Shown in pieces: positions 17,653 to 57,289 of a DNA stretch of 64,000 nucleotides; positions within the stretch are counted from its first letter, which is position 1, and every line of letters begins with the position of its first letter. The DNA is taken from NCBI GenBank assembly GCA_934130545.1, contig CAKOYD010000002.1, positions 194,209-258,208 of the forward strand, written 5' to 3'. Both the position numbers and the translations under genes were made by a program. The notes beneath the pieces were generated by a model. That model was not told the DNA's origin. It saw only the letters and a program-made list of their open reading frames with translations, and did not search any database. The DNA is from an uncultured Bacilli bacterium (lineage in GTDB: Bacteria; Bacillota_I; Bacilli_A; RF39; UBA660).

Positions 17653-17848
17653 ATTTTTTCCTCCTTTTGTTTTTTCTTCCAAATATCTCTTCTCTATATA
17701 CCACTTATTTATAAATAAGCACTAGATATATAAATCAATATTTGTGCTAATTTAAGAAAAGCCATTAATAATATATCATAAAATAGTCAATAATACAAAT
17801 GTTTTTTATTATAAATTAAAAATATTTGTATCTCCTTACCAAAATAGA

Positions 17849-18422: not shown

Positions 18423-20195
18423 TTATTTAACTATATATGGTTCTGTAGCAGTACCTAATCCTCCCCCTGTCACCGTTATCCCTTGTTTAAGTGAAACTAC
18501 AGGGCGCCCACCGAGCGAACCCGTAACGCTGTTTTCGGCGACAATCCCAGAGGAACGCAAATCGATCTCGCCAGCACCCCAGTCGTAGAAGAGAGACGGA
18601 GAAAAGGACCAATTATAAAAACCATTATACAAGTAATATGATGTATTTGTTTGCCATACCACTCCACCTGCAAAAGCCATTTCTTCCGCTGTAATCATTC
18701 CTACTGGATATGTTAACTCGCCATTACCATTATCCGTACTAACTGTAAACTTATCTATTTGTCTTGGACATACTAAACTTAACTTTCTATTTAATAGCCT
18801 TTGAACACTGCCAAAATATAACCACTTATTATAGTTACTGTAATCTTTATTCCAACCACTAGTACTTAAATTATAATATGTTCTATCATTACAAAATCCA
18901 GTATCTTCTAATTGTAATGTATAACTAGTCATATTAGTTTTATACCAAGTATCTATCTTTACTTTAGCATTTGATTCTTTAACATTAATGTCACCTTCAA
19001 ACATTTCATTTAGTAAATCAACTGGTTTCTTACCATTCGTTAGAGTGAAATAGTAAGTATATTTGTCTTCACTATAAATAATGTGTATATAGTATACACT
19101 TTGACAACTAGTACCTGAACTAAAGCAAGTATAATGATATTTGTCAGTATAGTTACTATATTCAGTACCCCAGCTACTTGGATCAGTTAATGTTTTAGTA
19201 TCTTTTAGTGTATATTTCCCTGTACTTGCATCGTACGTAGCATCATTTCCAAACACTATTGAACCTGTTAATGTTGTTATATCTTTGCTTGATGCAGTAT
19301 ATACCGTATTATACATGTATCCAACATATGCCGGAGAATTATAATTTGTATTAAATTGAATATTACCTATCGTAGTAGCACTACCTGTATTATTACATTG
19401 TCCATTAGAAGGTACACCATTATATATTAACTTAACCCCACCTGTTTCTGTTGTTCTTATTATTTTCCAGCAGAAGTTGGCAAATAATACATTATTATCT
19501 ACTGCTCCACGATAGTAATATACTGGTATATTACCTTCGGTATTAGTTGTCATATAGATGCCATTAGTACTACTAGCATCAGATGTTTTACTAAAATCAA
19601 TAGTTGTAGTAGTATCGGCATTATTTTTTATATAATCATATAATGGCTCTCCACCAATTAATACAGTACCATCACTATCTTCTACATCTTTAACTGCTAT
19701 ACCACTAGAAGTTAAATTAGCATTAAACTTCTTACCTAATATATCAGAAGAAGATACAGTATCAGGTATCCATAATTTAATAGTAAATGTTCTAGAAGAA
19801 CCTGGATTTAATATAACATCTCTAATTATTATATTACTATCACTAGACAATATAGCAGGGTTTTCCCCATCCATAGATACTTTAATGAAACTACTATCTA
19901 AAGTACTATTACTCATAGGTTCTAATATAACATTAAACTTATATGCTAAAGTACCTACATTGGTAATAGTAATAGTAGTTTCATTAGAATTCATACCATC
20001 AGTATCACTCATAGGATAAACATTATTTAAGTTTATACTTACATTACTATAACTTAATTTTAATGTACCAGTACTATAATTTTGTACAATAGAACTTACT
20101 TCACTAGTAAATAATGCATAAGTTTCTTTACCAATAGATACAAATAACATTAAAACAATTAATATTAACAATAATTTTTTATTTCTACTATTCAT
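18423..20195 (-). CDS. large secreted protein with a SipW-cognate (TasA/camelysin-type) signal peptide; 3' end compositionally atypical
   Basis: 590 aa. N-terminus MNSRNKKLLLILIVLMLFVSIGKETYALFTSEVSS matches the SipW-cognate signal class (…GTYAYFSDTE…). S/T/N/Y-rich body. The last ~60 codons are GC-rich with atypical codons. Confidence 0.7.
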   Translation of the reverse strand: MNSRNKKLLLILIVLMLFVSIGKETYALFTSEVSSIVQNYSTGTLKLSYSNVSINLNNVYPMSDTDGMNSNETTITITNVGTLAYKFNVILEPMSNSTLDSSFIKVSMDGENPAILSSDSNIIIRDVILNPGSSRTFTIKLWIPDTVSSSDILGKKFNANLTSSGIAVKDVEDSDGTVLIGGEPLYDYIKNNADTTTTIDFSKTSDASSTNGIYMTTNTEGNIPVYYYRGAVDNNVLFANFCWKIIRTTETGGVKLIYNGVPSNGQCNNTGSATTIGNIQFNTNYNSPAYVGYMYNTVYTASSKDITTLTGSIVFGNDATYDASTGKYTLKDTKTLTDPSSWGTEYSNYTDKYHYTCFSSGTSCQSVYYIHIIYSEDKYTYYFTLTNGKKPVDLLNEMFEGDINVKESNAKVKIDTWYKTNMTSYTLQLEDTGFCNDRTYYNLSTSGWNKDYSNYNKWLYFGSVQRLLNRKLSLVCPRQIDKFTVSTDNGNGELTYPVGMITAEEMAFAGGVVWQTNTSYYLYNGFYNWSFSPSLFYDWGAGEIDLRSSGIVAENSVTGSLGGRPVVSLKQGITVTGGGLGTATEPYIVK

Positions 20196-36610: not shown

Positions 36611-39600
36611 CTATTGCCAACAATAACTATCGTTTAATTTAGTATATCCACTAGCACATGAATATGTTGTTACTGTTGTTCCTGATGTATATATTTTACA
36701 TGACTTATTTACAAGGTATCCACTTGAGCAAGAATAAGCATATGAACAATTATTACTACTAAGAGTATATCCAGATGGGCAATTTGCACCACCAGAATTA
36801 GCACAACTATATTGTGTTACCCTTCCAGTACTAGTTCGCTTACAATAAAAACTTCCTGTAAGATGACTATTAGCACTAGTATAATAATAACATCCGCCAC
36901 TATCTTGTAGATTACTACCACAATCTTCATAAGAACTTGCTGTTGTATTCGCTACTGTACCACTACATGTATTAGTATTACCAGCTCCATCTTTTACATA
37001 GAAAGTATATGTCTTTGCTCCTGTTATTGTACCAGTACTACTATTACTGCCACTATATGATGAACTCCAACCATAGTATGCTAGACCACTTCCTCCTTCA
37101 TCAGAATATGTGGCAGTTATTGTTGTACCACTAGCACTTAATGTACATTTTGGTCTAATTGTATCGATAATAATCCAGTGAGCATATAACGTTGTATCTG
37201 ATGTTTTATCCCAATCTCTTACACTTTGACCACTACTATTATAATATTGTGTTCCACCACTTGCTGAGTCATAATAACCGGCAAATGTATATCCAGTCAT
37301 AGTAGGTAAAGTTATATCAGGATAACTACCTTGTTTAGTACCATGAACAATAGTAGTTGAGTCAGTACCTCCTGTACCACCATTCTTATTGAATGTTATA
37401 GTATATACTTTAGCTGTCCAATAAGCATATAGTGTATGATCACTAGCATTGGATACTATAGTATCACTTGTTACTCTAGTACCTGTACCATTTTCTCCCG
37501 TATACCAACCGCCAAATGAATAACCTGCTTTTATTGGTGTTGGCATATCACCATATTTTTGACTTTGTTGAACAGTTCTGTTTATACTAGTCAGAATTAT
37601 TCTAGCTGCTCCATTACCAGTCTTAACATAATTACTAACAGAATTCCCGGAAATATTAGTTGTAGAATATGTTTTAGTACTTGTTGCATCAGAAGTTGCG
37701 CAATTATAACAATACATATATTTATCAGTAAGCAGTGAATTGCCAATATAACCAGAACCACCTCCGCCAGGAGCAATGTGTCCACTTCGTGATCCACCAT
37801 AAAAACCACCGCCTCCGCCAGTAGTAGCCCAATCACTTCCACCGCCTTGGCCGAATGACCCAGTAATAACACCACTATTTACTTCGCTTGCTCTATTACA
37901 ATCACTTGTTATTTTACCTCCGGCGGTCTGAGTTCCGCCAAGGCCTACACACCATTGATTATCTTCAACACTGGATTCATCTCCAGAATTACCTATGTAT
38001 CCACCACCGGAACCACCACGTAATCCATATGTTCCAACATTTTCACCATAGTAAGATCCACCGCCTCCGCCAGAAACAATTAATATATTTGATAGGCTAG
38101 ATGATAATGATGATAGTAATCCAGACTTTGTAGCAATATGAGTCGCTCCACCGCCGGAACCAAATGATCTATTGCAGCATGCCTGGCCTCCTGTTGAACC
38201 ACCACCATTATATCCACCCACAATATTCTCTAACGTTCCAGACGAGGTTCTGCTTCCCTGGCCTCCAACATTAACATATAAAATATCACCTGAGTTTAAT
38301 GTAGTCGTTCCTTGTGAATATCCCCCATAACCACCAACAGTACCATCTATTGTTGTTCCTCCTTGAGCACCCCATGTTTCAAGTTTATATGTTCCAGTAT
38401 ATGGGACTGTGTAAATATTTTCTTTGGCCTCTGTAAATGTTGAAATAACATTATAACTTCCACCGGCAACATCAAAAGTTACATTTACAGTTTTATTCCA
38501 TTTAGCATACAAAGTATGATTATTGGCAATAGTTATTACTGTATTCTCATCTACTTTAGTACCTGCCCCATTCTCACCAGTATACCAACCACCGAAAGTA
38601 TATCCTTCTCTAGTTGGGGTTGGTAATTCACCATATTTGTCTTTATAAGTTACATTATAGTTGGTGTCACTTATTAATGTAACTCTAGCTGCTCCATCAC
38701 CGCTTTTAGCGTAATCAGTAGTTGGTGTCGCTGAAGCATTGGTAGTTGTATATGTCTTAGTATCGGTAGCATCAGATGTTGTACAATTATAGCAATACAT
38801 ATATTTATTAGCAAGTAATGAATTGCCTATGTAACTGGATCCACCGCCACCGCCACCATTCCTAGCAGAACCGCCAGCTCCACCGTATAGACCACCGCCT
38901 CCACCGCCAGCTCCGTGCTCAAAGCTTGCTTCGTATCCACCTTGGCCTCCTAATCCAAATTGTCCAACTGTACCAGTAACACTTCCAGAGCCAAGGGTTC
39001 CTCCGGAGGTTTGTGTACCGCCACCGCCACCGCCTTGGAATGAACTACTATTGTGTCCACCGGTGTTACCCTGTATCCCACCGCCTGAACCACCTATCTC
39101 ATTTGCATTAAATACTCCAGTACCACCGCCGCCGCCTGAAACTATCAGGATACTTGATAGAGAGGATGATAAAGACGACAATAAACCTGTCTTTGTTGCA
39201 ATATGGGTAGCACCACCCCCAGTTCCTGCACTGTAATTTGCATTTCCACCACCATTATATCCACCAGTAGTAAATGTACTTTCAGCATTAGAACTTACGC
39301 CTTGACCTCCGACATTAAGATATAAAATATCTCCTTTTTTTAATGAAACAACTCCAGTAGAGTAACTACCATAACCAATTTGAGTTGTAGAATATTGGCC
39401 GCCTTGGGCTCCCCAAGTTTCTAATTTATAATCACCAGTATATGTTACTTTGTAAGTATACTCTTGCGGTTGGGTGTATGTAACAGCAAAATTACCTCCT
39501 GCTAAGTCTAAACTAACTGTTATATTTTTAGGTTCAAACACTACTTCACAATTAACATTACTTGTTATATTAGATATAGTTAAGATATTATTAGATACTG

Positions 39601-40201
39601 TTCCTTCACATGTTGTTGATTTATATTGATAACCATCATTAGGTGCTAAAGTATATTTAACTGTACCATTCTTAGTAGATAATTTAATATTAGGTTTTAC
39701 TTTACCGTAAGTATTATTATTAGATTTAACTATTGCTTTATAGTATACATCTTTATTTATGCCAGTACTATTGCTAGGTAATTCTAATATTTCTTTTTCA
39801 AAACCTACTATATCTTTAATACTTACTGTTGTATCAGTACTACTATTATTTTGAATAAATACTTTAACTAGATTAGTATTCTTACTATTAAGTACTCCAC
39901 TAGTATCTGTATCACTTATATTAATTATACTAATATTAGAGTTTACTCCTTCTAAATAAAGTAGATATGACATATTAAATTCATTAGGATTACTTATTTT
40001 AATATCTACTATTTTACTATCATAACTAGGTATTAATATATCTCTATTAGTTCTATCACCTAAAACTATATTAAATAGATAATCTGCTTTACTACTATTA
40101 CCTTCGGTAATGGTAGTATCTATTGCAAATGTTCCTATTAGAGAAATAACTCCTATTATAAATATCAAAAATAATCCTATATATATTGTCCTTTTTTTCA
40201 T
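36611..40201 (-). CDS. giant secreted glycine-rich surface protein: signal peptide, duplicated Gly-rich module with Flg_new (Listeria-Bacteroides) repeats, and a Cys-rich C-terminal module shared with the pilin-like protein
   Basis: ~1196 aa from ATG 40201 (AGGTGG RBS; the ORF track uses GTG at 40213). N-terminal signal MKKRTIYIGLFLIFIIGVISLIG. Two ~345-aa tandem copies (YKLETWGAQGG…GGATHIATK.GLLSSLSSSLS.ILIVSGGGGG…YMYCYNC…GY.FGGWYTGENG.GT.V…HTLYA.W). A third Flg_new repeat. C-terminal ~200 aa Cys-rich tail. Confidence 0.8.
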   Translation of the reverse strand: MKKRTIYIGLFLIFIIGVISLIGTFAIDTTITEGNSSKADYLFNIVLGDRTNRDILIPSYDSKIVDIKISNPNEFNMSYLLYLEGVNSNISIINISDTDTSGVLNSKNTNLVKVFIQNNSSTDTTVSIKDIVGFEKEILELPSNSTGINKDVYYKAIVKSNNNTYGKVKPNIKLSTKNGTVKYTLAPNDGYQYKSTTCEGTVSNNILTISNITSNVNCEVVFEPKNITVSLDLAGGNFAVTYTQPQEYTYKVTYTGDYKLETWGAQGGQYSTTQIGYGSYSTGVVSLKKGDILYLNVGGQGVSSNAESTFTTGGYNGGGNANYSAGTGGGATHIATKTGLLSSLSSSLSSILIVSGGGGGTGVFNANEIGGSGGGIQGNTGGHNSSSFQGGGGGGTQTSGGTLGSGSVTGTVGQFGLGGQGGYEASFEHGAGGGGGGLYGGAGGSARNGGGGGGSSYIGNSLLANKYMYCYNCTTSDATDTKTYTTTNASATPTTDYAKSGDGAARVTLISDTNYNVTYKDKYGELPTPTREGYTFGGWYTGENGAGTKVDENTVITIANNHTLYAKWNKTVNVTFDVAGGSYNVISTFTEAKENIYTVPYTGTYKLETWGAQGGTTIDGTVGGYGGYSQGTTTLNSGDILYVNVGGQGSRTSSGTLENIVGGYNGGGSTGGQACCNRSFGSGGGATHIATKSGLLSSLSSSLSNILIVSGGGGGSYYGENVGTYGLRGGSGGGYIGNSGDESSVEDNQWCVGLGGTQTAGGKITSDCNRASEVNSGVITGSFGQGGGSDWATTGGGGGFYGGSRSGHIAPGGGGSGYIGNSLLTDKYMYCYNCATSDATSTKTYSTTNISGNSVSNYVKTGNGAARIILTSINRTVQQSQKYGDMPTPIKAGYSFGGWYTGENGTGTRVTSDTIVSNASDHTLYAYWTAKVYTITFNKNGGTGGTDSTTIVHGTKQGSYPDITLPTMTGYTFAGYYDSASGGTQYYNSSGQSVRDWDKTSDTTLYAHWIIIDTIRPKCTLSASGTTITATYSDEGGSGLAYYGWSSSYSGSNSSTGTITGAKTYTFYVKDGAGNTNTCSGTVANTTASSYEDCGSNLQDSGGCYYYTSANSHLTGSFYCKRTSTGRVTQYSCANSGGANCPSGYTLSSNNCSYAYSCSSGYLVNKSCKIYTSGTTVTTYSCASGYTKLNDSYCWQ
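37430..39500 (-). repeat. internal tandem duplication (~1.05-1.08 kb unit, two copies) inside the giant gene
   Basis: Nucleotide-level similarity at ~1082-bp offset (for example 37688-37770 versus 38770-38850). The protein shows two co-linear ~345-aa modules. Boundaries are approximate. Confidence 0.7.
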
Positions 40202-40225
40202 AATTAACACCACCTATAGACATGA

Positions 40226-40252
40226 CAAAAAGAGTCTAACTTCTTAAACTCC
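40226..40252 (-). terminator. terminator-like or attenuator hairpin ~25 nt upstream of the giant gene start
   Basis: Minus strand GGAGUUUAAG-AAG-UUAGACUC followed by UUUUUG. Conserved with the hairpin at 20238..20257. The uORF stop codon UAA lies inside the 5' arm. Confidence 0.5.
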
Positions 40253-40348
40253 TTCTTTATGCTTATAATAAAAACAAACAAATGTATTACTTATACCCCC
40301 CCCCCATGTAAACATAGAGTTAACGCTTTTTCTTAATATTTTATACAT
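40244..40348 (-). CDS. putative leader uORF (MYKILRKSVNSMFTWGGGISNTFVCFYYKHKEGV) spanning a G10 tract
   Basis: ATG lies 9 nt after AAAGGAGUU, the same geometry as the uORF at 20296..20355. The stop codon sits inside the terminator-like hairpin. May be non-coding. Confidence 0.3.
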   Translation of the reverse strand: MYKILRKSVNSMFTWGGGISNTFVCFYYKHKEGV

Positions 40349-40422
40349 AATCATTAACTCCTTTCTACATAGGAAGAAATACCTTGTTTGTTTATCTCCT
40401 ATCTTCTACTAAATTATAGCAC

Positions 40423-40451
40423 ACATCATTTTATTTGTCTATTAGTTAAAA
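40423..40451 (-). promoter_or_regulatory. sigma-A promoter with extended -10 driving leader B and the giant gene
   Basis: Minus strand TAGACA-17 nt-TGcTATAAT. Confidence 0.55.
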
Positions 40452-43571: not shown

Positions 43572-43600
43572 AGTTAGGCCAACAAAAGCCTAACTTTTTT
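43572..43600. terminator. bidirectional terminator between rpsD and the convergent polysaccharide locus
   Basis: GTTAGGC-CAACAAAA-GCCTAAC stem-loop followed by TTTTTTCT. Flanked by A-run and T-run. Confidence 0.7.
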
Positions 43601-44084
43601 CTATTTCTCTATCAATTAAATCAATCATATTATCAGTATTACTCTTAAACTTCTTGGGTTTAAATTTAGAAGATTCTTTTATTAACTTATCAATATCATC
43701 AAAGTTATCTAACTTTAATATATATCCTTCTTTAGAAAAATTATCTATTATTTGTAATTGATGATCATTCACATGCTCATTATATTTACTTAAACGAGCT
43801 GCCGCAATTACCTTTTTATTATTTTTTAAACCAGTTATAATCGAACCTACACCACCATGTGTTATCAATAAATCACATTTCTTTATCATCTCATCAAACT
43901 CATCCATGGGTATTAAATCAAATATTTTCATATACTTTGACTTAAAATCTGCTGAACAACCTGCTTGAACAACTACTTCATCATCAATCAAATGTTTATC
44001 TAACTTATCTTCAAGAGCCTCTAGTATTCGATAAAATTGTTTATCTTGTGTACCTAACGTAACTAATATCATTAATAAATCCAC
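43590..44084 (-). CDS. Alg13-like glycosyltransferase C-terminal subunit (Cps14G/EpsF-type UDP-sugar transferase partner)
   Basis: 164 aa GT28 C-terminal-like domain (…THGGVGSIITGL…). Paired with the upstream Alg14-like gene. Confidence 0.65.
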   Translation of the reverse strand: MDLLMILVTLGTQDKQFYRILEALEDKLDKHLIDDEVVVQAGCSADFKSKYMKIFDLIPMDEFDEMIKKCDLLITHGGVGSIITGLKNNKKVIAAARLSKYNEHVNDHQLQIIDNFSKEGYILKLDNFDDIDKLIKESSKFKPKKFKSNTDNMIDLIDREIEKS

Positions 44085-44881
44085 CCCCCATATATTGCTT
44101 TAGGATATAACTCTAACATACTTTCCCATTGTACTACAAAAGTATTAGCAATCGGGTATACTAACTTACCAGCTACGGTCTTAGTAGTACTATTAGCAAA
44201 CGTCTCAATAAATATAACCTTACTACCAAGAATGCGTCCTATATAACACATTGGCACGGCCGTATGCGTACCAGTAGTTACTATAGCATCTGGTCTTATC
44301 TTTAAATACAATATAAAAGATTTAATAATATTAAAGGAAAATATAAAGAAATAAGTAAATAAATTCTTTTTAGTACCATATACTAAATAACTAACATTAT
44401 TATATTTATCTTTTAAATTCTTATTAGACTTCGTCTTTTCAGTAATTAAATAACTATCATACTTTGTAATCAATGGCTTTAACTGTAATAATTCATTCAA
44501 ATGTCCACCTGTACTAGATATAAATATAACTTTCTTTTTATCATTCTTTTTAAATAATAAAGTAAATATATAACATAATACCAAATCTATAATTATAACT
44601 ATTGATTTTAATAATACACTATTCTCTATTCCAAACAAAGTTATTAATATATTCATAAGTATTATATCTACTAAAAATACTACTATTCCACTAAATATAA
44701 ACTTATTTATTGAACTCATAACCTTATATTTTTTATTAATAAAATAACATATTATTACTCCACTAATAAATGATATAACACTAGCTAATCCCCAACTCAT
44801 ACTATCTATACATAGATAATATACACCAAAGCATAAAACTCCTACGCCAACATAGCACATTAATTTACTTAATTTCTTCAT
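44072..44881 (-). CDS. GtrA-like 4-TM domain fused to an Alg14-like glycosyltransferase membrane-anchor subunit
   Basis: 269 aa. N-terminal 4 TM helices (GtrA-like) followed by an Alg14/Cps14F-like domain (VIFISSTGGHLNELLQL). Confidence 0.6.
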   Translation of the reverse strand: MKKLSKLMCYVGVGVLCFGVYYLCIDSMSWGLASVISFISGVIICYFINKKYKVMSSINKFIFSGIVVFLVDIILMNILITLFGIENSVLLKSIVIIIDLVLCYIFTLLFKKNDKKKVIFISSTGGHLNELLQLKPLITKYDSYLITEKTKSNKNLKDKYNNVSYLVYGTKKNLFTYFFIFSFNIIKSFILYLKIRPDAIVTTGTHTAVPMCYIGRILGSKVIFIETFANSTTKTVAGKLVYPIANTFVVQWESMLELYPKAIYGGWIY

Positions 44882-44893
44882 AATAATTTCTCC

Positions 44894-47380
44894 TTACCTA
44901 TTTAATATTTTATAAACAATATTAGCCATCTTTTTATTAAACATAATCAAATATATTCCTTTAGCATTAGTATAAAAATACTTATTTAATCTATATTTAG
45001 GAAAATTACTTTTGACATTTAAAATTGCCGTATCAACAGCAGCATCAAATTCATCTTTATTAAAATGAGCAGCTTGTTTAATAAAAGTAGCATATAAATA
45101 CCTTACATAACAATACTCAAGTTCCTTTTTGTAATTATTATATATACCTCTATCTTTATAAAATACTATTAAGTCATTAAAATTATCAACATAATTATAT
45201 AATCTTTTATCAAAAGTTTTAGTAATCGAACCACTTCTTTGTACATACTGATTAAGGGGTTCTTTTACCACACCAATATTATTAATATAAGGAAATATTT
45301 TATATAAAAAGTCAACATCTTCAAACCATACACCTTTTTTAAACTCAATCTTCTTACTAAATAATTCTTTCTTATATATCTTATTCCAAACACAAGGATA
45401 CATATTTACATAAGTCTTTTTAATATTTGTAGTATCCATTTCAATTTTAGAACTAACTCTTTTTATGCTTCCATCTTCATAAACATAATTTAAATCACAT
45501 ACAACAACATCAAAATTACCTGATATAGCTTTATTATACATTTTTTCATACATATCTATAGAAACGAAATCATCACCATCAACAAATGCAATATAATCTC
45601 CTTTGGCTTCCTTAATTCCAAAATTTCTAGCATCACTAACACCACCATTTTTCTTTATGTAGCTATGGATAGTACTATATTTTTTAGCATACTTATCTAT
45701 AATACTTTGACTATTATCTGGGCTTCCATCATTAACTACTATTATTTCTATATCTTTAAGAGTTTGATTAACTAAACTATCTAAACACTTATCAATATAC
45801 TTTTCTACATTATATACCGGTACGATAACACTTACCTTAGGATTTTTTGATTTCTTTACCATATTTACCTCACTAACATTTTCTTTACCTATTACATATT
45901 TTAATTTATCATGTCTTACAAAAGAAAGCAAGTACCCGCTTATAAAAGCAAGTGGTATTGTAACTATTAATTCATCTAAAACATGTCCACTAAAATAAGA
46001 TATTCCTAAACAAACATATACTGATATGACAAGCATAGTTGTCTTTAATCTTAATCTTCTCTTTAGTAGCATATATATTCCTGAATAAGTTGCAATTACA
46101 ATATAAGGCCCAAATAGTAATAATATACCAATTATTCCGATAGTATAATAATGTACTGTAAAATCACTTTCTATATATATTTCTGCTATTCTATATCTAG
46201 AATAACCTTCCCCAAAATACTTATCATACTTATTATTATTTAATGAATATATTCTATTAGTAATAAGTTTTTCTAACTTACGATTTCCCCCTCTTTCACT
46301 ATAAGGAAGTTTCATAACATCTATCCAAAAATCTATATCTTGTTCATAAGGATATAAATCATAAATATATGTCTTAGGAATAGAATAATATTCAAAATAC
46401 TCTTTAATAAATTCTTCTTTTTCTTCTACAGTACGCAAATTATGTAATGATTCATTAACAGTATCTTTATTTTCCATACCATTTTCTATTTCTTCATAAT
46501 CAGTAACTGTATATCTTAAAATTAATGGTGAATTAAGAGTTATAAATCCTAATACCATAAAACATGATATATATAATAATATCTTTTTTAAAGTTATTTC
46601 GACTTTATTTTTATCAATAAGTGCAAAAAATATCCATGCTATAAACATAACTACACTAACAATAGCCCATCCATATACTGCTACTCTCGTTCCTATCATT
46701 ATCATAGCCAAACATAAAGTAAGTGAAGATATAAAAGCTTTCTTATTAGAAAATCTAATAGCATAATATATGTTTATTGGTAATATTAATATTGTTAAAG
46801 CACTTATCTGATTAGCCATATAAAAGTACCCTTTTGAAGCTAGTTGTTCAAATGTAAAATCTTTATTTAAAAACCAGTCAAATATATTACCCGCTATAAA
46901 ATGAGGCTCTCCATAAGAAACTAAAGATATCTTAAATATATTAGTAATTATTATCTCTAAAGAAATAATTAATGATAATACCACAATACTCTCTCTAAAT
47001 GCCTCTTCTGTTATCTTAGCTTTATAAACTATATATATAAGCATTAAAGGTAATAACAATCTTATATAATAAAAAGCTTCTGTTATATATGAAAAATTCA
47101 TAACGGAATTTATTCCAATATTAAAATTAAGACTATTAATAACATGGCCTATCAAATAGACAAATAATATAGCCAAATACCCCGCTATAAACCAGTGCTT
47201 CTTATCATTCTTCGTATTTATTAATGTTATTATAAAAAATACAAATATAAATATAATTCTAATTATTGTTGAAGGAGAAAATTTAAATATCCTAGTAACT
47301 TTTTCACTATATAATAAATAGAAATCTAAAAATGGTTGTATTATTAAAAATATAAATAGTGCTTTATCTATTTTCTTCAT
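44894..47380 (-). CDS. fusion of a polytopic Wzy/O-antigen-ligase-like membrane domain (~480 aa) with a C-terminal GT2 glycosyltransferase
   Basis: 828 aa with about 10-12 TM helices. The C-terminal part has KVSVIVPVYNVEKYIDKCLDSLVNQT…VVNDGSPDNS…DGDDFV GT-A motifs paralogous to the two other GT2 genes in the locus. Confidence 0.65.
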   Translation of the reverse strand: MKKIDKALFIFLIIQPFLDFYLLYSEKVTRIFKFSPSTIIRIIFIFVFFIITLINTKNDKKHWFIAGYLAILFVYLIGHVINSLNFNIGINSVMNFSYITEAFYYIRLLLPLMLIYIVYKAKITEEAFRESIVVLSLIISLEIIITNIFKISLVSYGEPHFIAGNIFDWFLNKDFTFEQLASKGYFYMANQISALTILILPINIYYAIRFSNKKAFISSLTLCLAMIMIGTRVAVYGWAIVSVVMFIAWIFFALIDKNKVEITLKKILLYISCFMVLGFITLNSPLILRYTVTDYEEIENGMENKDTVNESLHNLRTVEEKEEFIKEYFEYYSIPKTYIYDLYPYEQDIDFWIDVMKLPYSERGGNRKLEKLITNRIYSLNNNKYDKYFGEGYSRYRIAEIYIESDFTVHYYTIGIIGILLLFGPYIVIATYSGIYMLLKRRLRLKTTMLVISVYVCLGISYFSGHVLDELIVTIPLAFISGYLLSFVRHDKLKYVIGKENVSEVNMVKKSKNPKVSVIVPVYNVEKYIDKCLDSLVNQTLKDIEIIVVNDGSPDNSQSIIDKYAKKYSTIHSYIKKNGGVSDARNFGIKEAKGDYIAFVDGDDFVSIDMYEKMYNKAISGNFDVVVCDLNYVYEDGSIKRVSSKIEMDTTNIKKTYVNMYPCVWNKIYKKELFSKKIEFKKGVWFEDVDFLYKIFPYINNIGVVKEPLNQYVQRSGSITKTFDKRLYNYVDNFNDLIVFYKDRGIYNNYKKELEYCYVRYLYATFIKQAAHFNKDEFDAAVDTAILNVKSNFPKYRLNKYFYTNAKGIYLIMFNKKMANIVYKILNR

Positions 47381-47388
47381 ATATCCTC

Positions 47389-48585
47389 CTATCTAAATAA
47401 TTTATATAATTGTTTTAATATCTTATCATTTTCTTTATCATAATCATATTTTATTAAATTATCTTTAAACTTATCAATAAGACTTCTATCAGTAATAACT
47501 TTCTTTAATCCTTCATATAATCCTTCATTACTATTATCTACTACTAGGCCATTATAACCACTCTTAATAAGTTCTCCTGTTGCTGAATTACTAGTAGCTA
47601 ATACTGGTACACCAAGAGTCATCGCTTCTACTATTACAATACCAAATGGCTCAAATATTGAAGGTAATATAAACATATCATTTCCATTAATGCATTCATA
47701 AGGATTATCAGTGTATCCCATAAGTTCAAAATAGTTTTCCATCTTATTATCCATAATCTTTTTCATTAATGTATCCATTAATGGACCATCACCATATATT
47801 TTAAAACTAACATCCTTAAGTAAGTTATCATTTCTAAGACATATTACAGCATCTAGTAATCGATCGTATCCTTTCATCGGATGTAATCTTCCTACTGAAA
47901 CAAAATTTAGTTTCTTACTATTTTTCTTCTTACCTCTAGCCATCTTTTTAATCTTATTAATATCAACATAATTACCAATAACCATTGTAGTATCTTCTAA
48001 ATGATATATCTTATTAAAGTCATCCATTACACCTTTAGATACTGCTACTATCTTATTAAACTTAGGTAATACCTCTTTAAATAACCTATCATATTTAGCA
48101 TTAGGATTAGCAATAGTATAATTATAATGAAGCCAATGAATCTTATTCTTGCAATTACCGAAACCTACAAATAAAGCCGTAAATCCATCTTTAAAAGCAA
48201 CTTCTGTATCATACTCTTTTTTTAATATTTTCTTTCTTTCTTTTATAATTCTATTTTTAATTAAACCAGTCTTCATCTCTAAAACTAATCGAACTTTCTT
48301 AAATATTAAAGAAAGATTCTTACTTCTTAATACTTCTCCTATTGTTAAATCAACTGCATCAAAATACTTTGTACCATATATAATATTAACATTCTTAGGT
48401 AAATTATTAAGTCTTGTTCCATTATTATGTAGAACCAAAACATCAATATTAAACTTACTATAATCAAATTTATTTAACATATCTTCAAGAAGAATAGATA
48501 CTCCTCCCATTCTTCTCTCATCTACTACAAATAATATATCTTTCATTATTACTTCGACTCCTTTAAAACTATCTTTAATAACCAA
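47389..48585 (-). CDS. GT4-family glycosyltransferase
   Basis: 398 aa. C-terminal GT4 signature (…EPFGIVIVEAMTLGVPVLAT…). Confidence 0.75.
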   Translation of the reverse strand: MVIKDSFKGVEVIMKDILFVVDERRMGGVSILLEDMLNKFDYSKFNIDVLVLHNNGTRLNNLPKNVNIIYGTKYFDAVDLTIGEVLRSKNLSLIFKKVRLVLEMKTGLIKNRIIKERKKILKKEYDTEVAFKDGFTALFVGFGNCKNKIHWLHYNYTIANPNAKYDRLFKEVLPKFNKIVAVSKGVMDDFNKIYHLEDTTMVIGNYVDINKIKKMARGKKKNSKKLNFVSVGRLHPMKGYDRLLDAVICLRNDNLLKDVSFKIYGDGPLMDTLMKKIMDNKMENYFELMGYTDNPYECINGNDMFILPSIFEPFGIVIVEAMTLGVPVLATSNSATGELIKSGYNGLVVDNSNEGLYEGLKKVITDRSLIDKFKDNLIKYDYDKENDKILKQLYKLFR

Positions 48586-49505
48586 TAATATTTCTTATAA
48601 AATAAAATACACACCACTCTATACTTAATATTAGTATTTTTAAAGTATCTATTCTTCTTCCAATTAGGGAACTCTTCTTTAATAATCTTAACAATTCTTT
48701 CTAACTCATTATACTTCTTAAACTTAAAAAATCTAAGTGAAGCCGCATGCAGTAAATGTTCAATATATATATACTCAATCTCATCTTTATATAAATCATA
48801 CTTATTATTACTAATAAATCTATTTCTTAATGTATCTAATGAATCAAATATATCTTCAAAAGACTTCTTATACTTTACTTGGTTCATAATAGAGCCACTT
48901 CTAATAACATAATAATATAAATAGTCATCAATATAATCTATCTTTTTAGCATATATTCCAAGTGCCGGAATAACAGCAATATCTTCATAAAAATGCTTCT
49001 CTAAAAAACGTAAATTATATTTTATAAATAATTCTTTCTTTATTAATTGCCAACAAGGACCACAACAATTTAATACATAATTTTTATATATATTATCACT
49101 TATAATATTAAATGTTTTAACTTCGGTAGTTTTATCATCTACTACTCTATAATAATTGGAAACAACAATATCACTACGTTTTTTACTAACGGTATTAACT
49201 AATTTTTCTACCATTTTCATATCAACATAATCATCACTATCAACAAACATTATATATTCTCCGGTAGCTTTATCAATGCCATAATTACGAGCAATAGCTG
49301 AACCACCATTCTCTTTTACATAACTCTTAATAATCTTAGAATACTTCTTCTTATATTCATCTATAATACTTTGACTATTATCTTTTGTTCCATCATTAAC
49401 TACTATAATCTCTATATTTTGATAAGTTTGATTAACTAAACTATCTAAACATTTTCTTAAATATTCTTCAACGTTATAAACAGGCACTATTATACTAACT
49501 TTCAT
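48549..49505 (-). CDS. GT2-family glycosyltransferase
   Basis: 318 aa. KVSIIVPVYNVEEYLRKCLDSLVNQTYQNIEIIVVNDGTKDNS…DSDDYV. Confidence 0.8.
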   Translation of the reverse strand: MKVSIIVPVYNVEEYLRKCLDSLVNQTYQNIEIIVVNDGTKDNSQSIIDEYKKKYSKIIKSYVKENGGSAIARNYGIDKATGEYIMFVDSDDYVDMKMVEKLVNTVSKKRSDIVVSNYYRVVDDKTTEVKTFNIISDNIYKNYVLNCCGPCWQLIKKELFIKYNLRFLEKHFYEDIAVIPALGIYAKKIDYIDDYLYYYVIRSGSIMNQVKYKKSFEDIFDSLDTLRNRFISNNKYDLYKDEIEYIYIEHLLHAASLRFFKFKKYNELERIVKIIKEEFPNWKKNRYFKNTNIKYRVVCILFYKKYYWLLKIVLKESK

Positions 49506-49515
49506 ATATCCTCCA

Positions 49516-50964
49516 CTACTTCTTTAATCTAAATGTAACTAAAAACTTATCTATCAAAAAATGTTCTATATCATCATGCATAATAAATAATATTCCCAAA
49601 TATATAAGCATACCAACTAATACTTGAACTATATTAGTAAGAATACCCGGGCCCATTACTAATCCAACACCAAGCGCACCAGCTCCCATTAATATTCCAA
49701 CACCCAAGTACGTAAATATTTTCTTAATAATACCATCAAAATTAAATGTCTTCTTAACAAAATGATATTGAATAAGTAAAATAACTAACTCAGTAATTGA
49801 AGATGCAATAGCCGCTCCATATGCTCCAAAATGTCCAATAAGTAAAGCATTTAAAACTATATTAACAACACAACCGCTTGTTACTGATATTGTGTATTTC
49901 TTCGATTCATCATTAACAATTAAATATTGCATTCCAAAGACATTAGTTAAAGATATAAATACTATCGTCGGTGTTAAACAACAAATAATATAAGCAACCT
50001 TCCCAAAATCTTTTGGTAAAAACCATGGAATAAAGAATGGTGATACTACAGAGAATCCTATGGCAATAGGAATAGATAAAAATAATGCAATCTTAAAAGT
50101 ATTATTAGTTATTAATTTAACTGTATCATCATTTTTTTCACTTTTCTTTCTCACAATGTTTGGTAGCATAACTGTTCCTATTGTTGTAATAATAAACATT
50201 AGCATATTTACAAGTTTATGAGCTTGCGTATAAAAACCAACTTCACTTATATCATCATATAATAAACCAATCATTGTCTGATCAAAAACACTATAAATAC
50301 TAGAAGATATCTGTGGAATAAAAAGAACAAAATTCTCTTTAAAATGTGGAACAATATCTTTAAATTTAGAAATCTTAAAATCTATTATTTTATTAATACC
50401 AACCCATATCATAAGTGAACCTATAACATTCATAATAATTATAAATGTCATATATAAATATAAATCATTCTCATTATGTACTAAAAGTAATATTCCACTT
50501 ACCATTAATAGTTTAACAATAAAACCTCTTATTGTTGTCTTTTTAAAATTCTCTAATCCTATATAAAACCAAGTTATTTCAAACATCGATGATAAAAGCA
50601 TTCCTCCCTGTAAAAGAAATACCATATGATATTTAAAATCAAAAGTTAAGAATACAAAATAATATATTATCAAAGATATTAATGTACATAAAAATTGTAA
50701 TGAAAATATCTCCGAAAACTTCTTTGATAGTTTCTCTCTATCATTTGAAACCTTAGCTATTTCTTTACTACCATACAAACTTATTCCCATTGTTCCAAAT
50801 AATATAAACCAATATACTATTGAATAAGTATAATTAAACTTTCCTAAATTATCCGCCCCTAAAGTACGTGAAAGATAAGGAGCCGTTATAATAGGAGTTA
50901 AAAAAGTTAATATTTGATATGCTACATTATATATATAATTAGCAGCTACACTACTTTTTTTCAT
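49516..50964 (-). CDS. wzx: Wzx-type oligosaccharide flippase (MOP superfamily polysaccharide biosynthesis protein)
   Basis: 482 aa with about 12-14 TM helices. Located within the polysaccharide locus. Confidence 0.7.
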   Translation of the reverse strand: MKKSSVAANYIYNVAYQILTFLTPIITAPYLSRTLGADNLGKFNYTYSIVYWFILFGTMGISLYGSKEIAKVSNDREKLSKKFSEIFSLQFLCTLISLIIYYFVFLTFDFKYHMVFLLQGGMLLSSMFEITWFYIGLENFKKTTIRGFIVKLLMVSGILLLVHNENDLYLYMTFIIIMNVIGSLMIWVGINKIIDFKISKFKDIVPHFKENFVLFIPQISSSIYSVFDQTMIGLLYDDISEVGFYTQAHKLVNMLMFIITTIGTVMLPNIVRKKSEKNDDTVKLITNNTFKIALFLSIPIAIGFSVVSPFFIPWFLPKDFGKVAYIICCLTPTIVFISLTNVFGMQYLIVNDESKKYTISVTSGCVVNIVLNALLIGHFGAYGAAIASSITELVILLIQYHFVKKTFNFDGIIKKIFTYLGVGILMGAGALGVGLVMGPGILTNIVQVLVGMLIYLGILFIMHDDIEHFLIDKFLVTFRLKK

Positions 50965-52085: not shown

Positions 52086-52088
52086 ATA

Positions 52089-55039: not shown

Positions 55040-55621
55040 ATGAATACTATAAAAGAAACTATTGAAAACACTTTAATTATTAAAAATTCTAGATTTATAA
55101 CTATTATCTATAACATTAACGATATCAATGATATTGATAAATATTTAAAACAAGTTAAAGATAAATATAAAGATGCTACCCATTATTGTTATGCCTATAT
55201 ATTACCCAATAATATTAAATGTAGTGATGATGGTGAACCAGGTGGTACTGCCGGTAAACCAATATTAGATGTCTTAACTAAACATAATCTAAACTTTGTT
55301 CTAGCAATTGTTGTTAGATATTTTGGTGGTATAAAATTAGGAGCTGGTGGTCTTATTCGTGCTTATTCTAAATGTATATCTACTTGTTTAAATAATACTA
55401 AGTTAACTAAACTAATTCTTGGTAAAAACATCGATATCTATTTTACTTATAAAGATATTAATGATATTGACTTATTACTAACTAACTGTCATATCAATAA
55501 TAAAAATTATCAAGATATGATTAGTTATAATGTAAATATTCCTAATGATTTATTACCAATTCTTGAAAATAAATACCAAGTTAAAGTAAATAATGATATC
55601 TATATAAAAAGTGATATGTAA
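55040..55621 (+). CDS. yigZ: IMPACT/YigZ family protein
   Basis: 193 aa, UPF0029 N-terminal domain (…SRFITIIYNI…DDGEPGGTAGKPIL…). Confidence 0.75.
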   Translation: MNTIKETIENTLIIKNSRFITIIYNINDINDIDKYLKQVKDKYKDATHYCYAYILPNNIKCSDDGEPGGTAGKPILDVLTKHNLNFVLAIVVRYFGGIKLGAGGLIRAYSKCISTCLNNTKLTKLILGKNIDIYFTYKDINDIDLLLTNCHINNKNYQDMISYNVNIPNDLLPILENKYQVKVNNDIYIKSDM

Positions 55622-55633
55622 TTACACATACCA

Positions 55634-57289
55634 CTATTTTTTATAACAATAACTATCATTTAATTTAGTATAATCACTTGGACAAGTATAAGTATTAACT
55701 GTTGTACCAGATGTATATATTTTACACGACTTATTTACTAATGACCCACTTGTACAATAATAATCAGTAATCGTTGTACAATTATTACTATAAAATGTAT
55801 AACCACTTGAACAAGAAAGTGTAGAATTTTCTTTACCTGCACAATTATTTTCTTCCACAGCATTAGAAGTTTTACTCTTACAAACATAAGTCCCAGTATA
55901 ATGCTTCTTTGTATTAGCACTAGAATAATAATAACAACCACCGGAATCACTGCTATAGTTTCCACAATCTTCATAACTACCCTTTGTAGTTTCAATTATT
56001 GTTGCACTACAACTATTAGTATTACCAGCAGTATCCTTAACATAATATGTATGAGTACCAATACCTATATTTCTACTAGTACTACTATCACCACTATAAG
56101 ATGAATTCCAACCATTATACATTATTTGACTCATATTATCACTAGATATTGCTGTAATCGTACTAGTATTAACATTTAATGTACAACTAGGAACAGTTCG
56201 ATCAATATAAATATTAACTTCTATCTTACTACTATTACCAGCTTCATCTATTGCTTCAATAATAGCCTTTCGATTACCATTTCCGGATAATGTCTTAGAA
56301 CAAGCATTATTACAATTAGCCCCACTATTACTAGGAGTATCCCCATTAACACTACCTTCACTATTATAAGTCCATTTAATCACTGCATTTTTATCCGTAC
56401 TAATATCAAACCAATACCCATAATTTTTCCATTCATTAACTACATAATTACTACTAGTATTAGTAATAAACTCTCCCTTACTCTTAGGAGTATTTCCTTC
56501 ATAACTACCTATCTTATAAATACTAAGACTAATTACAGGTGGATTACTGTCAAATATTGCATCAATGTTTTTAGTTGCTTCTGCTACATTCGCTCCACTA
56601 TAATTAATAAAAGCTGATACTACACCATTAGATTTAACACTTAATCTAACTACTTCACTATTTGCTAAATACCAATGACCTGACTCCAAATTATTAACAG
56701 TATTGTTACTACAACTACCTATACTATCACAAGCATATACTATATCATTAGTAGTAACAGTATTTTCACTAAATCCAGATATATAAAAGTATCTATAATA
56801 ATCACTACCTAAAGTATTATATAATATCTTAGCATTCGTCATATTAACATTTTTACCCTTATTATCTGTAGAAATTGATATACTAGATTGATATCCACAA
56901 TCAACATCAGGTAAAATACTATCTTCAAAAGAAAAACTAGTCTCTTTAATAACTTTACTATCTTTATCTCTAATTACTTTTATCATTGTACCCTTAGAAA
57001 ACTTATCATTCTCATCAATAACTTTTTCATCAAAATACCCAATCTCTATCATATTACCTAATGATATACAACTATATTCATAATTATCTTTAACATTCCA
57101 ATAACTAGATACTTCATCATTATATACTATAGCGGCACTCTTAATATTATTATAAGTAATTAACTTAGCATTATCTTTTGCCTTATTAATGTTTTTCATT
57201 ACTATATATACTGTAACACTTAAAACTACTCCAAGTATAACTACTGTACTTAATAATTCAACTAAAGTAAATCCATTCTTCTTTTTCAT
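55634..57289 (-). CDS. type-IV-pilin-like (prepilin N-methylation signal) protein with a ~500-aa C-terminal extension ending in the shared Cys-rich module
   Basis: 551 aa. N-terminus MKKKNGFTLVELLSTVVILGVVLSV is a class-III (prepilin peptidase) signal with Glu+5. The C-terminal ~200 aa are co-linear with the giant protein's C-terminus (…YYVKDTAGNTNSC…GSYEDCG…DSGGCYYY…SGSLVNKSCKIYTSGTTVNTYTCPSDYTKLNDSYC). Confidence 0.75.
   Translation of the reverse strand: MKKKNGFTLVELLSTVVILGVVLSVTVYIVMKNINKAKDNAKLITYNNIKSAAIVYNDEVSSYWNVKDNYEYSCISLGNMIEIGYFDEKVIDENDKFSKGTMIKVIRDKDSKVIKETSFSFEDSILPDVDCGYQSSISISTDNKGKNVNMTNAKILYNTLGSDYYRYFYISGFSENTVTTNDIVYACDSIGSCSNNTVNNLESGHWYLANSEVVRLSVKSNGVVSAFINYSGANVAEATKNIDAIFDSNPPVISLSIYKIGSYEGNTPKSKGEFITNTSSNYVVNEWKNYGYWFDISTDKNAVIKWTYNSEGSVNGDTPSNSGANCNNACSKTLSGNGNRKAIIEAIDEAGNSSKIEVNIYIDRTVPSCTLNVNTSTITAISSDNMSQIMYNGWNSSYSGDSSTSRNIGIGTHTYYVKDTAGNTNSCSATIIETTKGSYEDCGNYSSDSGGCYYYSSANTKKHYTGTYVCKSKTSNAVEENNCAGKENSTLSCSSGYTFYSNNCTTITDYYCTSGSLVNKSCKIYTSGTTVNTYTCPSDYTKLNDSYCYKK

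What the first reader, a model, noticed from the sequence alone, without database searches (positions are those of the whole stretch)
36611..37215. Cys-rich ~200-aa C-terminal module shared at ~80% nucleotide identity between the giant protein and the pilin-like protein
The 3' ~600 bp of gene 36611-40201 and of gene 55634-57289 align at the DNA level. One example is caataactatcgtttaatttagtata…ccagatgtatatattttacatgacttatttac versus …caataactatcatttaatttagtata…ccagatgtatatattttacacgacttatttac. Both encode co-linear tails. Giant tail: D.I.P.CTL…TITA…Y.GW.SSYSG…YVKD.AGNTN.CS…SYEDCG…DSGGCYYY…C…SGYLVNKSCKIYTSGTTVTTYSCASGYTKLNDSYCWQ. Pilin-like tail: same motifs, ending …SGSLVNKSCKIYTSGTTVNTYTCPSDYTKLNDSYCYKK. 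Each has ≥10 conserved Cys. The rest of the two proteins is unrelated: a Gly-rich SipW-type protein versus a type-IV-pilin-like protein. This is a hallmark of a mobile cassette or recombination-prone shared module. It may be a common anchoring or receptor-binding domain, or a substrate for gene conversion between surface proteins 19 kb apart.
Basis: seen in the sequence. Interest (0 to 1): 0.75.

Follow-up and report, generated by a model that had tools for sequence, protein, structure and literature searches.

The report
Swappable cysteine-rich tip on surface proteins
Two otherwise unrelated surface proteins of a low-GC, spore-forming gut bacterium end in the same unannotated module, an Ig-like domain followed by a cysteine-rich beta-hairpin tail; related strains swap this module for other endings by recombination, so it is most likely a variable binding tip.

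Summary
The shared module is real. About 187 aa align at 55% identity (BLASTP E 9e-50), with all 12 Cys co-linear. Nucleotide identity is 68.6%, not ~80%. The two window copies are old paralogues. dS is about 0.8, codon identity matches what codon usage alone predicts, and the longest exact shared run is 17 nt. There is therefore no sign of recent gene conversion between them.

Strains with 97-98% identical flanks carry mosaic alleles. One pilin allele is 100% identical over 193 aa and then has a different tail. Giant alleles are about 90% identical up to the module junction and then carry a third glycine-rich domain instead.

I read the module as an exchangeable display or binding cassette on a modular pilin and on a large surface protein. 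The function is inferred, not shown.

The parts
36611..40201 (-). Giant surface protein gene (1196 aa from the ATG at 40201). It has an N-terminal hydrophobic signal/anchor, 2x ALK_LTK_GRD, 3x Flg_new repeats and the C-terminal module.
   Evidence: ORF list. Pfam PF12810 at 1.3e-60 and PF09479 at 6.9e-33. The 1196-aa product is on record as P0194.
36947..37174 (-). Ig/PKD-like first half of the module in the giant. It holds a conserved Cys pair (P.C.LS ... N..CS).
36614..36946 (-). Cys-rich beta-hairpin tail in the giant. It has 10 Cys and three C-x-S-G-Y-x(5-7)-C units, and ends ...YSCASGYTKLNDSYCWQ.
55634..57289 (-). Pilin-like protein gene (551 aa). It has a class III (prepilin) signal MKKKNG|FTLVE, an unannotated middle region and the C-terminal module.
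   Evidence: PF07963 at 28 bits (cut-off 21.2). TIGR02532 at 24 bits (cut-off 16.3). The protein is identical to P0155.
56006..56212 (-). Ig/PKD-like half of the module in the pilin-like protein.
   Evidence: Alignment A2. The P0157 mosaic breakpoint lies right after ...AGNTNSCS.
55637..56005 (-). Cys-rich tail in the pilin-like protein, replaced in alleles P0157 and P0020.
   Evidence: 24.5% identity to P0157 in this segment against 100% just upstream. No DNA alignment to L013 across this segment.
55610..55635 (-). Terminator-like hairpin at the stop codon of the pilin-like gene, overlapping the 3' end of the convergent UPF0029 gene.
   Evidence: 11-pair stem followed by a T run.
40222..40441 (-). 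Promoter-like site and conserved structured 5' leader of the giant gene. It contains a G10 tract at 40296-40305 and a terminator-like hairpin at 40222-40251.
   Evidence: No Rfam family at E<=1.
18423..20195 (-). Second example of cassette sharing: a 590-aa protein with a SipW-like signal. Its C-terminal ~400 aa are homologous to the C-terminus of pilin orthologues P0169/P0171 from other strains.
   Evidence: BLASTP gives 60% identity over 158 aa (E 9e-55) and 42% over 200 aa (E 8e-34). The sequence is shown.

Best explanation
The shared stretch is one allele of a lineage-restricted, unannotated C-terminal module with two parts. The first part is a PKD/Ig-like beta-sandwich that acts as a stalk or adapter. 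The second is a ~110-aa cysteine-rich stack of beta-hairpins that always ends the protein with ...TTYSCxSGYTK(I/L)N(N/D)SYCYK.

The module is grafted onto carriers that leave the cell by different N-terminal routes. These are type IV pilin-like proteins with a class III signal peptide, making the 551-aa protein a 'modular pilin', and signal-peptide surface proteins such as the giant GRD/Flg_new protein.

Shown here:
- Homology of the two copies.
- The two-part predicted fold.
- The strictly C-terminal position.
- The range of carriers.
- The mosaic alleles.
- The absence of recent conversion in this genome; the two copies are anciently diverged paralogues.

In the population the Ig part and the tail behave as separate cassettes. 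Homologous recombination exchanges them at conserved junctions: the end of the last Flg_new repeat (...TLYAxW), the ...AGNTNSCS end of the Ig domain, and the last ~45 nt of the gene plus the downstream flank.

Inferred, not shown: the Cys pairs form disulfides; the tail is the distal, exposed ligand-binding (adhesin) tip; and its turnover among strains reflects diversifying selection from host ligands, antibodies or phages.

The confidence of 0.6 is a blend: about 0.85-0.9 for the structural and evolutionary account, and about 0.5 for the adhesin-tip function.
For: Homology: E 9e-50 with 12 co-linear Cys.

Fold:
- Whole-module model has pLDDT 92.9 and the tail-only model 86.8; both are all-beta.
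- The first half matches PKD/Ig folds.

Family:
- 237 representative clusters at E<=1e-3 and 124 at E<=1e-10.
- 75 of 80 complete instances lie within 8 residues of the C-terminus.
- Cys counts are even in 68 of 80 (binomial p 1.2e-10).
- In all 80 the last Cys is within 10 residues of the end, with a strong terminal consensus.

Carriers: 24 'NNKGYMLVEIILA' pilin-like, 14 GFTL[IV]E pilin-like, 7 giant-type and 5 SipW-like.

Cassette exchange:
- P0157 and P0184 mosaics.
- L013: 96.7% flanks, 83% N-part, no DNA alignment in the tail.
- Giant alleles with a different C-terminal domain, and the L014 alignment ending at 37175 with 97.7% flanks.
- The tail of giant-type P0074 is 84% identical to that of pilin-type P0075. 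The window giant's tail is 72% identical to that of the minor-pilin-type P0010.
- Tandem pilin-like genes in L008 share an N-terminus but have different tails.
- An independent second cassette is shared between window gene 18423-20195 and pilin alleles P0169/P0171.

Old paralogy: dS 0.82, 69 identical codons against 61.8 expected, 17-nt longest run.

Precedent: modular pilins graft binding modules onto a pilin for display, and modules are shared between pilins and non-pilin carriers (PMC8179133).
Against: - No binding data, no ligand, and no recognisable lectin or adhesin signature.
- No type IV pilus assembly genes (ATPase, platform, prepilin peptidase) in the window or next to any related locus examined. 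Assembly into a filament is therefore unproven.
- Disulfide formation in a strict anaerobe (rubrerythrin, spore genes) is assumed.
- The most conserved element is the extreme C-terminal hairpin, not what one expects of a purely hypervariable binding surface. It could instead serve a common partner or a folding role.
- Both structure models rest on shallow alignments (11 and 8 sequences).
- Allele comparisons use metagenome contigs, so which alleles co-occur in one genome is mostly unknown.
Confidence: 0.6

Rival explanations
1. Recent or ongoing intragenomic gene conversion keeps the two window copies alike.
For: The two copies lie 19 kb apart on the same strand. Each is the other's closest or near-closest relative among the carriers compared: 55% identity against 38-54% to orthologous giants and 45-47% to orthologous pilins. 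The 3' ends reach ~80-85% nt identity.
Against: dS is 0.82 overall with no dip at the 3' end; pS is 0.58 where amino-acid identity is 83%. Identical codons number 69 against 61.8 expected from codon usage, and the longest exact run is 17 nt. The giant's tail is closer to tails on other carriers from other samples: P0001 81%, P0010 72%.
Confidence: 0.05
2. The module is a C-terminal attachment domain that binds the cell's own wall polysaccharide. Tail classes would then co-vary with the strain's glycan.
For: The position is strictly C-terminal on very different secreted proteins. The tail is rich in aromatic residues. The two genes flank a polysaccharide-synthesis cluster at 43.6-53.1 kb. Both carriers in this genome bear the same tail class.
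Against: Giants 88-98% identical up to the junction lack the module and end in a glycine-rich domain. Pilin orthologues at the syntenic locus carry unrelated C-termini. A pilin-like N-terminus already provides membrane or filament anchoring. There is no similarity to SLH, CWB2, LysM, GW or LPXTG signals.
Confidence: 0.15
3. The variable C-terminus is a polymorphic toxin or bacteriocin-like effector delivered by the carrier.
For: A conserved N-terminal body with swapped C-terminal cassettes is the hallmark of polymorphic toxin loci. Small disulfide-rich domains can be toxins.
Against: There is no room for an immunity gene: 147 nt to mraZ after the giant, and 12 nt to the convergent UPF0029 gene after the pilin. 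No toxin or defence family matched in Pfam or NCBIfam. Alternative cassettes are Ig-like, Gly-rich or repeat domains rather than enzymes.
Confidence: 0.04
4. The resemblance is only compositional (S/T/Y/C-rich low complexity).
For: The sequence is rich in S, T, Y, G and N.
Against: E 9e-50; 12 of 12 Cys are co-linear; the profile retrieves 124 clusters at E<=1e-10; the predicted fold is confident.
Confidence: 0.01

Closest known systems
Modular type IV pilins (Streptococcus sanguinis PilB with a vWA module and PilC with a lectin module; ETEC CofB) - PMC8179133
   Same: An N-terminal class III signal peptide and pilin-type hydrophobic helix with E5 is followed by one or more extra C-terminal modules unrelated to pilus biology. 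The same modules also occur on non-pilin carriers, as reported for PilC/PilY1. The proposed role is display of a binding module.
   Different: The module here (Ig-like domain plus Cys-rich hairpin tail) has no database signature and no solved analogue. No pilus machinery is seen nearby. The second carrier class is signal-peptide proteins (GRD/Flg_new giants, SipW-like proteins), not PilY1. Strain-level cassette replacement is documented here.
PKD / HYR / bacterial Ig-like domains
   Different: No Pfam PKD or Big model is matched. HYR is matched only below threshold, in 6 of 19 members with best E 0.0076. The conserved Cys pair and the YYGW...YYVKD.AGN motifs are specific to this family.
EGF-like / cEGF / Sushi (CCP) disulfide hairpins
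   Same: The short motif aromatic-x-C-x-x-G-Y-x(4-9)-C recurs 1-4 times per tail. The terminal TTYSCssGYtkInnsYC aligns with Sushi hairpins of vaccinia complement control protein 1e5g (E 1.3e-3). There are weak cEGF, CC and Antistasin hits.
Cassette-type variation of surface proteins (Neisseria pilE/pilS, Mycoplasma MgPa/MgPar; own knowledge)
   Same: A conserved N-terminal body carries a C-terminal region replaced by homologous recombination at conserved junctions. The result is mosaic alleles among close strains.
   Different: No silent donor cassettes are seen in the window. The only second copy is an expressed-looking gene that diverged long ago. Exchange is seen between strains and carriers, not within one genome.
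ALK/LTK glycine-rich domain (PF12810) and Listeria-Bacteroides repeat (PF09479) proteins
   Same: The body of the giant carrier matches both families strongly. Flg_new repeats directly precede the module in many carriers.
   Different: These domains are not part of the shared module. They describe the carrier only.

Membership tests
Type IV pilin / class III signal peptide protein (PF07963, TIGR02532) | N-terminal prepilin cleavage/methylation motif: short basic leader, Gly at -1, hydrophobic helix, Glu at +5 | tested here: met
   The sequence reads MKKKNG|FTLVELLSTVVILGVV. PF07963 scores 28.0 bits (cut-off 21.2) and TIGR02532 scores 24 bits (cut-off 16.3).
Type IV pilin / class III signal peptide protein (PF07963, TIGR02532) | Globular pilin fold (alpha1-C packed on a beta-sheet) after the helix | not tested
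GspG, ComGC and ComGE models match only residues 2-65, below their cut-offs.
Type IV pilin / class III signal peptide protein (PF07963, TIGR02532) | Cognate machinery (prepilin peptidase, assembly ATPase, platform protein) in the genome | tested here: inconclusive
   None is found among the window's ORFs. None is found by motif scan near related loci. The rest of the genome could not be read.
Modular pilin (sensu PMC8179133) | A pilin N-terminus plus at least one extra domain not specific to pilus biology | tested here: met
   The module also occurs on non-pilin carriers, namely giant-type and SipW-like proteins.
PKD/Ig-like fold (first half of the module) | Seven-stranded beta-sandwich superposable on PKD/Ig domains | tested here: met
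Pfam PKD / HYR / Big families | Score above the gathering threshold | tested here: not met
   Only HYR matches, at 15.4 bits against a 21.7-bit cut-off. It matches 6 of 19 members at E>=0.0076.
EGF-like / Sushi domains (tail) | Family signature or fold match | tested here: not met
SipW-dependent signal peptide (TIGR04088), claimed for the giant | Match to the signal-peptide model | tested here: not met
   The giant's N-terminus gives no hit at E<=5. Relative P0007 reaches 17.1 bits against a 19-bit cut-off. The ...LIGTFAIDTT stretch only resembles the motif.
Gene-conversion pair (the two window copies) | Depressed synonymous divergence or long identical tracts | tested here: not met
   dS is 0.82. 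Identical codons number 69 against 61.8 expected, and the longest run is 17 nt.
Polymorphic toxin locus | Variable C-terminal toxin followed by a cognate immunity gene | tested here: not met
   The downstream intergenic spaces are 147 nt and 12 nt, followed by mraZ and a convergent UPF0029 gene.
Gram-positive C-terminal anchors (LPXTG and similar sorting signals) | Sorting motif, hydrophobic stretch and basic tail at the C-terminus | tested here: not met
   The proteins end ...SYCWQ and ...SYCYKK with no hydrophobic segment.

The most novel reading that the evidence does not exclude
The Cys-rich tails form a combinatorial recognition code. Within one genome, carriers exported by different routes (pilin-like, and signal-peptide giants or SipW-like proteins) would be kept on the same tail class. 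Classes would be exchanged between strains. The tails would then recognise a strain-specific partner: either each other (homotypic, kin or aggregation recognition) or a strain-matched glycan. This would be a new, fold-level undescribed recognition domain family in gut Firmicutes.
Probability: 0.12. Interest if true: 0.8.

Novelty: new variant of a known kind. Interest (0 to 1): 0.55.

Why it matters
Modular pilins are thought to explain how simple filaments gain many functions, but most of their modules are unannotated. This finding defines one such module family at sequence level and as a confident predicted fold. Its cysteine-rich half has no solved counterpart.

The same module moves between pilin-like and non-pilin surface proteins and is replaced between strains that are 97-98% identical in the flanking genes. 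That points to a hotspot of surface diversification in an uncultured, spore-forming gut lineage found in human (Hadza) and pig samples.

It also yields concrete targets: a ~190-aa domain for structure and ligand screening, and defined recombination junctions for population analysis.

Tried and rejected
- Low-complexity artefact: rejected.
- Recent gene conversion between the two window copies: rejected.
- Third copy in the window: none by tblastn.
- Pfam and NCBIfam assignment of the module: none above threshold.
- PDB sequence-profile search: only a motif-level Sushi hit at E 1.3e-3.
- AFDB search: the library was unavailable.
- Phage origin: no relative in the viral contigs.
- GTDB representative genomes: one locus only, an 'uncultured Clostridium sp.' MAG (L010). 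The window's taxon therefore could not be named. A first attempt with a broad alignment had no searchable block.
- Exact-sequence contig look-ups of the window pilin, P0155 and P0157: not on record. P0157's breakpoints could be seen only at protein level.
- Search with the giant's N-terminus: returned only fragments.
- Pilus machinery near related loci: none found by motif scan.
- Pairing tail classes of the two carriers within other genomes: not possible. The 10-kb flank limit is shorter than the 18-kb distance between the genes. Only matching contig lengths (99,523 and 258,665 nt) hint that window-type alleles co-occur in two assemblies.
- Literature searches for this architecture: nothing found.
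Full report
CONTEXT

The window has 27.7% GC and is ordinary chromosome from a spore-forming anaerobic Firmicute. Genes found include:
- ruvA, ddl, cotJB/cotJC, yunB, asnB and rubrerythrin;
- dnaJ-dnaK-grpE-hrcA, tsf, rpsB and efp;
- two PBPs and the mraZ-mraW-ftsL-PBP2x group;
- RNase J, rpsD and a polysaccharide-synthesis cluster at 43.6-53.1 kb;
- uvrC, a UPF0029 gene, radC, hsp20 and serS.

The giant gene (36611-40201, minus strand) lies between RNase J and mraZ. The pilin-like gene (55634-57289, minus strand) lies between radC and a convergent UPF0029 gene next to uvrC.

THE OBSERVATION

- The two C-termini are homologous: BLASTP aligns 193 columns at 55.4% identity, E 8.7e-50.
- All 12 Cys are in invariant columns.
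- Nothing else in the two proteins aligns, and tblastn finds only these two copies in the window.
- Nucleotide identity is 68.6% over 481 nt, lower than the ~80% reported.
- Nei-Gojobori analysis of the codon alignment gives dS 0.82 and dN 0.38. There is no dip in synonymous divergence in the best-conserved 3' segment, where pS is 0.58 at 83% amino-acid identity.
- Identical codons at identical residues number 69, against 61.8 expected from the window's codon usage. The longest exact shared run is 17 nt.
- The DNA likeness is therefore what protein conservation gives in an AT-rich genome. The two copies are old paralogues.

ANATOMY OF THE TWO CARRIERS

- The giant has two ALK_LTK_GRD domains and three Listeria-Bacteroides (Flg_new) repeats.
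- Its N-terminus is a hydrophobic signal or anchor ending ...LIGTFAIDTT. This resembles the SipW-type signal model but does not match it.
- The 551-aa protein has a bona fide prepilin-type N-terminus, MKKKNG|FTLVE. PF07963 and TIGR02532 both score above their cut-offs.

ANATOMY OF THE MODULE

- No Pfam or NCBIfam model covers the module.
- AlphaFold2 with an 11-sequence alignment gives a confident all-beta model, pLDDT 92.9.
- The remaining 110 residues are a run of short hairpins.
- At motif level the tail repeats C-x-S-G-Y-x(5-7)-C, three times in the giant.
- The terminal TTYSCxSGYTKxNxSYC resembles the central hairpin of Sushi and cEGF modules. The PDB profile hit is to 1e5g at E 1.3e-3, and the Pfam hits are sub-threshold. 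I treat this as a shared hairpin motif, not as family membership.

FAMILY

- A profile search of 1.84 billion representatives finds 237 clusters at E<=1e-3 and 124 at E<=1e-10.
- Of 80 complete module instances, 75 end within 8 residues of the protein's C-terminus.
- Cys counts are even in 68 of 80, p 1.2e-10. This fits paired disulfides, which is an inference.
- In all 80 the last Cys is within 10 residues of the end. The consensus is T-T-Y-S-C-S-S-G-Y-T-K-I-N-N-S-Y-C-Y-K.
- Carriers are mostly pilin-like. Twenty-four start ...NNKGYMLVEIILA and 14 start ...GFTL(I/V)E. Seven are giant-type and 5 are SipW-like; the rest are fragments.
- The family is rare in reference genomes. One GTDB representative has it, an 'uncultured Clostridium sp.' MAG with a 502-aa pilin-Flg_new-module protein among housekeeping genes.
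- It is absent from the viral contigs.
- Source samples are gut metagenomes, including pig gut and Hadza human gut.

CASSETTE BEHAVIOUR

This is the main result.

(a) The pilin locus.
- L013 carries the syntenic orthologue P0020 (970 aa), next to UPF0029 and uvrC.
- Its flanks are 96.7% identical to the window. The pilin N-part is 83% identical and the Ig part 72%.
- The Cys-rich part does not align at the DNA level. Identity resumes 45 nt before the stop codon.
- Allele P0157 is 71% identical over residues 1-152, 100% over 153-345, 98.8% over the Ig part, and 24.5% in the tail.
- Allele P0184 has P0157's N-terminal block with the window's tail at 100%.
- Other orthologues carry quite different ends. 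Some have a second kind of Ig domain with C-x-N-S-A-C-G repeats ending CWHY. P0169/P0171 carry a ~300-aa non-Cys domain.

(b) The giant.
- Members of its 90% identity cluster (P0195, P0197, P0200, P0205) are 88-98% identical up to ...TLYAHW. They then carry a third glycine-rich domain instead of the module.
- The DNA alignment with L014 runs from window 40435 to 37175, the module junction, at 91.4%. The neighbouring rpsB-to-asnB block is 97.7% identical.
- In that strain the giant sits at a different locus, between a 590-aa gene and rpsB.

(c) Across carriers.
- The window giant's tail is 72% identical to that of a minor-pilin-type protein (P0010). The tail of giant-type P0074 is 84% identical to that of pilin-type P0075.
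- L008 has tandem pilin-like genes with the same N-terminus and different tails.
- Giant orthologues are 70-90% identical in the first 230 aa but only 38-54% in the module. The window giant's module is as close to the window pilin's (55%) as to any orthologue's.

(d) A second, unrelated cassette behaves the same way.
- The C-terminal ~400 aa of window gene 18423-20195 (SipW-like signal) are homologous to the C-terminus of pilin alleles P0169/P0171: 60% over 158 aa and 42% over 200 aa.

INTERPRETATION

- The carriers' N-termini determine export and attachment. The C-terminus is dispensable for that, because sister alleles lack the module.
- The module is exchanged and fast-evolving, predicted to be a stable beta-rich extracellular domain, and sits at the free end of pilin-like proteins.
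- This matches the 'modular pilin' design, in which a binding module is grafted onto a pilin for display and modules are shared with non-pilin carriers (PMC8179133).
- I therefore read the module as a variable display or ligand-binding tip: an Ig-like stalk plus a Cys-rich head.
- The binding function, the disulfides and the selective agent are inferences.
- No pilus machinery was seen in the window or near related loci, so filament assembly is untested.

RIVALS

- Recent gene conversion between the two copies is contradicted by the synonymous-site data.
- A wall-anchor role fits the C-terminal position and the neighbouring glycan cluster. It fits poorly with alleles that lack the module.
- A polymorphic-toxin reading lacks any immunity gene.

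VERDICT

The 'recombination-prone shared module' idea is supported by population data. 'Gene conversion between the two copies' is not supported. The module is an undescribed domain family used in a known way, on modular pilins and shuffled surface-protein ends, so I rate it a new variant of a known kind with moderate interest.

Noticed in passing
window 40222-40441 (minus strand) and 20228-~20400 (minus strand); L014 6079-6293; L015 776-805: A conserved, structured ~180-nt 5' leader precedes the giant gene and the 590-aa SipW-like gene. It follows a near-consensus extended -10 promoter (40441-40413). It has a long AAACAAACAA/TTGTTTGTTT stem, an inner GGAGTTAA/TTAACTC hairpin, and a terminator-like hairpin with a T run just before the RBS. 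No Rfam family matches at E<=1. It is a candidate attenuator or riboswitch-like element for these surface-protein genes.
   Followed up: partly
window 40296-40305 (minus strand): A G10 homopolymer lies inside that leader. It is the only run of 9 or more G in a 27.7% GC window (0.01 expected). It is G9 in the same-species locus L014 and G5TG4 in the 590-aa gene's leader. The length polymorphism suggests slipped-strand phase variation.
   Followed up: partly
window 18423-20195 (minus strand): A 590-aa protein with a SipW-like signal (...GKETYALFTSE) and no Pfam or NCBIfam family. Its C-terminal ~400 aa are homologous to the C-terminus carried by pilin orthologues P0169/P0171 in other strains. 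This is a second cassette shared between a signal-peptide protein and the pilin locus.
   Followed up: partly
L014 857-10248 versus window 17822-17841: In a Hadza-gut strain with 97.7% identical flanks, ~9.4 kb lie between the small multidrug-export gene and rpsB. They hold a GH31 gene, a 188-aa ORF, a 590-aa ORF, a 122-aa ORF and the 1300-aa giant. The giant gene therefore occupies different chromosomal sites in close strains.
   Followed up: partly
L013 5656-6810: An IS605-family OrfB/TnpB (Cas12f-like) gene follows uvrC in the strain whose pilin allele differs. The window has the polysaccharide cluster at that position.
   Followed up: no
L008 1082-3591 and L025 2291-3787: Pilin-like genes sit next to one another. 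L008 has two 'NNKGYLIVEVILA' module-bearing genes with the same N-terminus and different Cys-rich tails; the second is frameshifted in that contig. L025 has one such gene. In both loci a 162-165-aa module-less pilin-like gene follows, a LolA-like lipoprotein gene lies upstream and a convergent FtsW/RodA-like gene downstream.
   Followed up: partly
window 43590-53084: A cell-envelope polysaccharide cluster lies between the two module-bearing genes. It includes Alg13/Alg14-like, an O-antigen-ligase-like/GT2 fusion, GT4, GT2 and a flippase. Whether its type co-varies with tail class is untested.
   Followed up: no
window 55610-55635: The pilin-like gene and the convergent UPF0029 gene are separated by only 12 nt. 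An 11-bp-stem terminator-like hairpin spans both gene ends.
   Followed up: no
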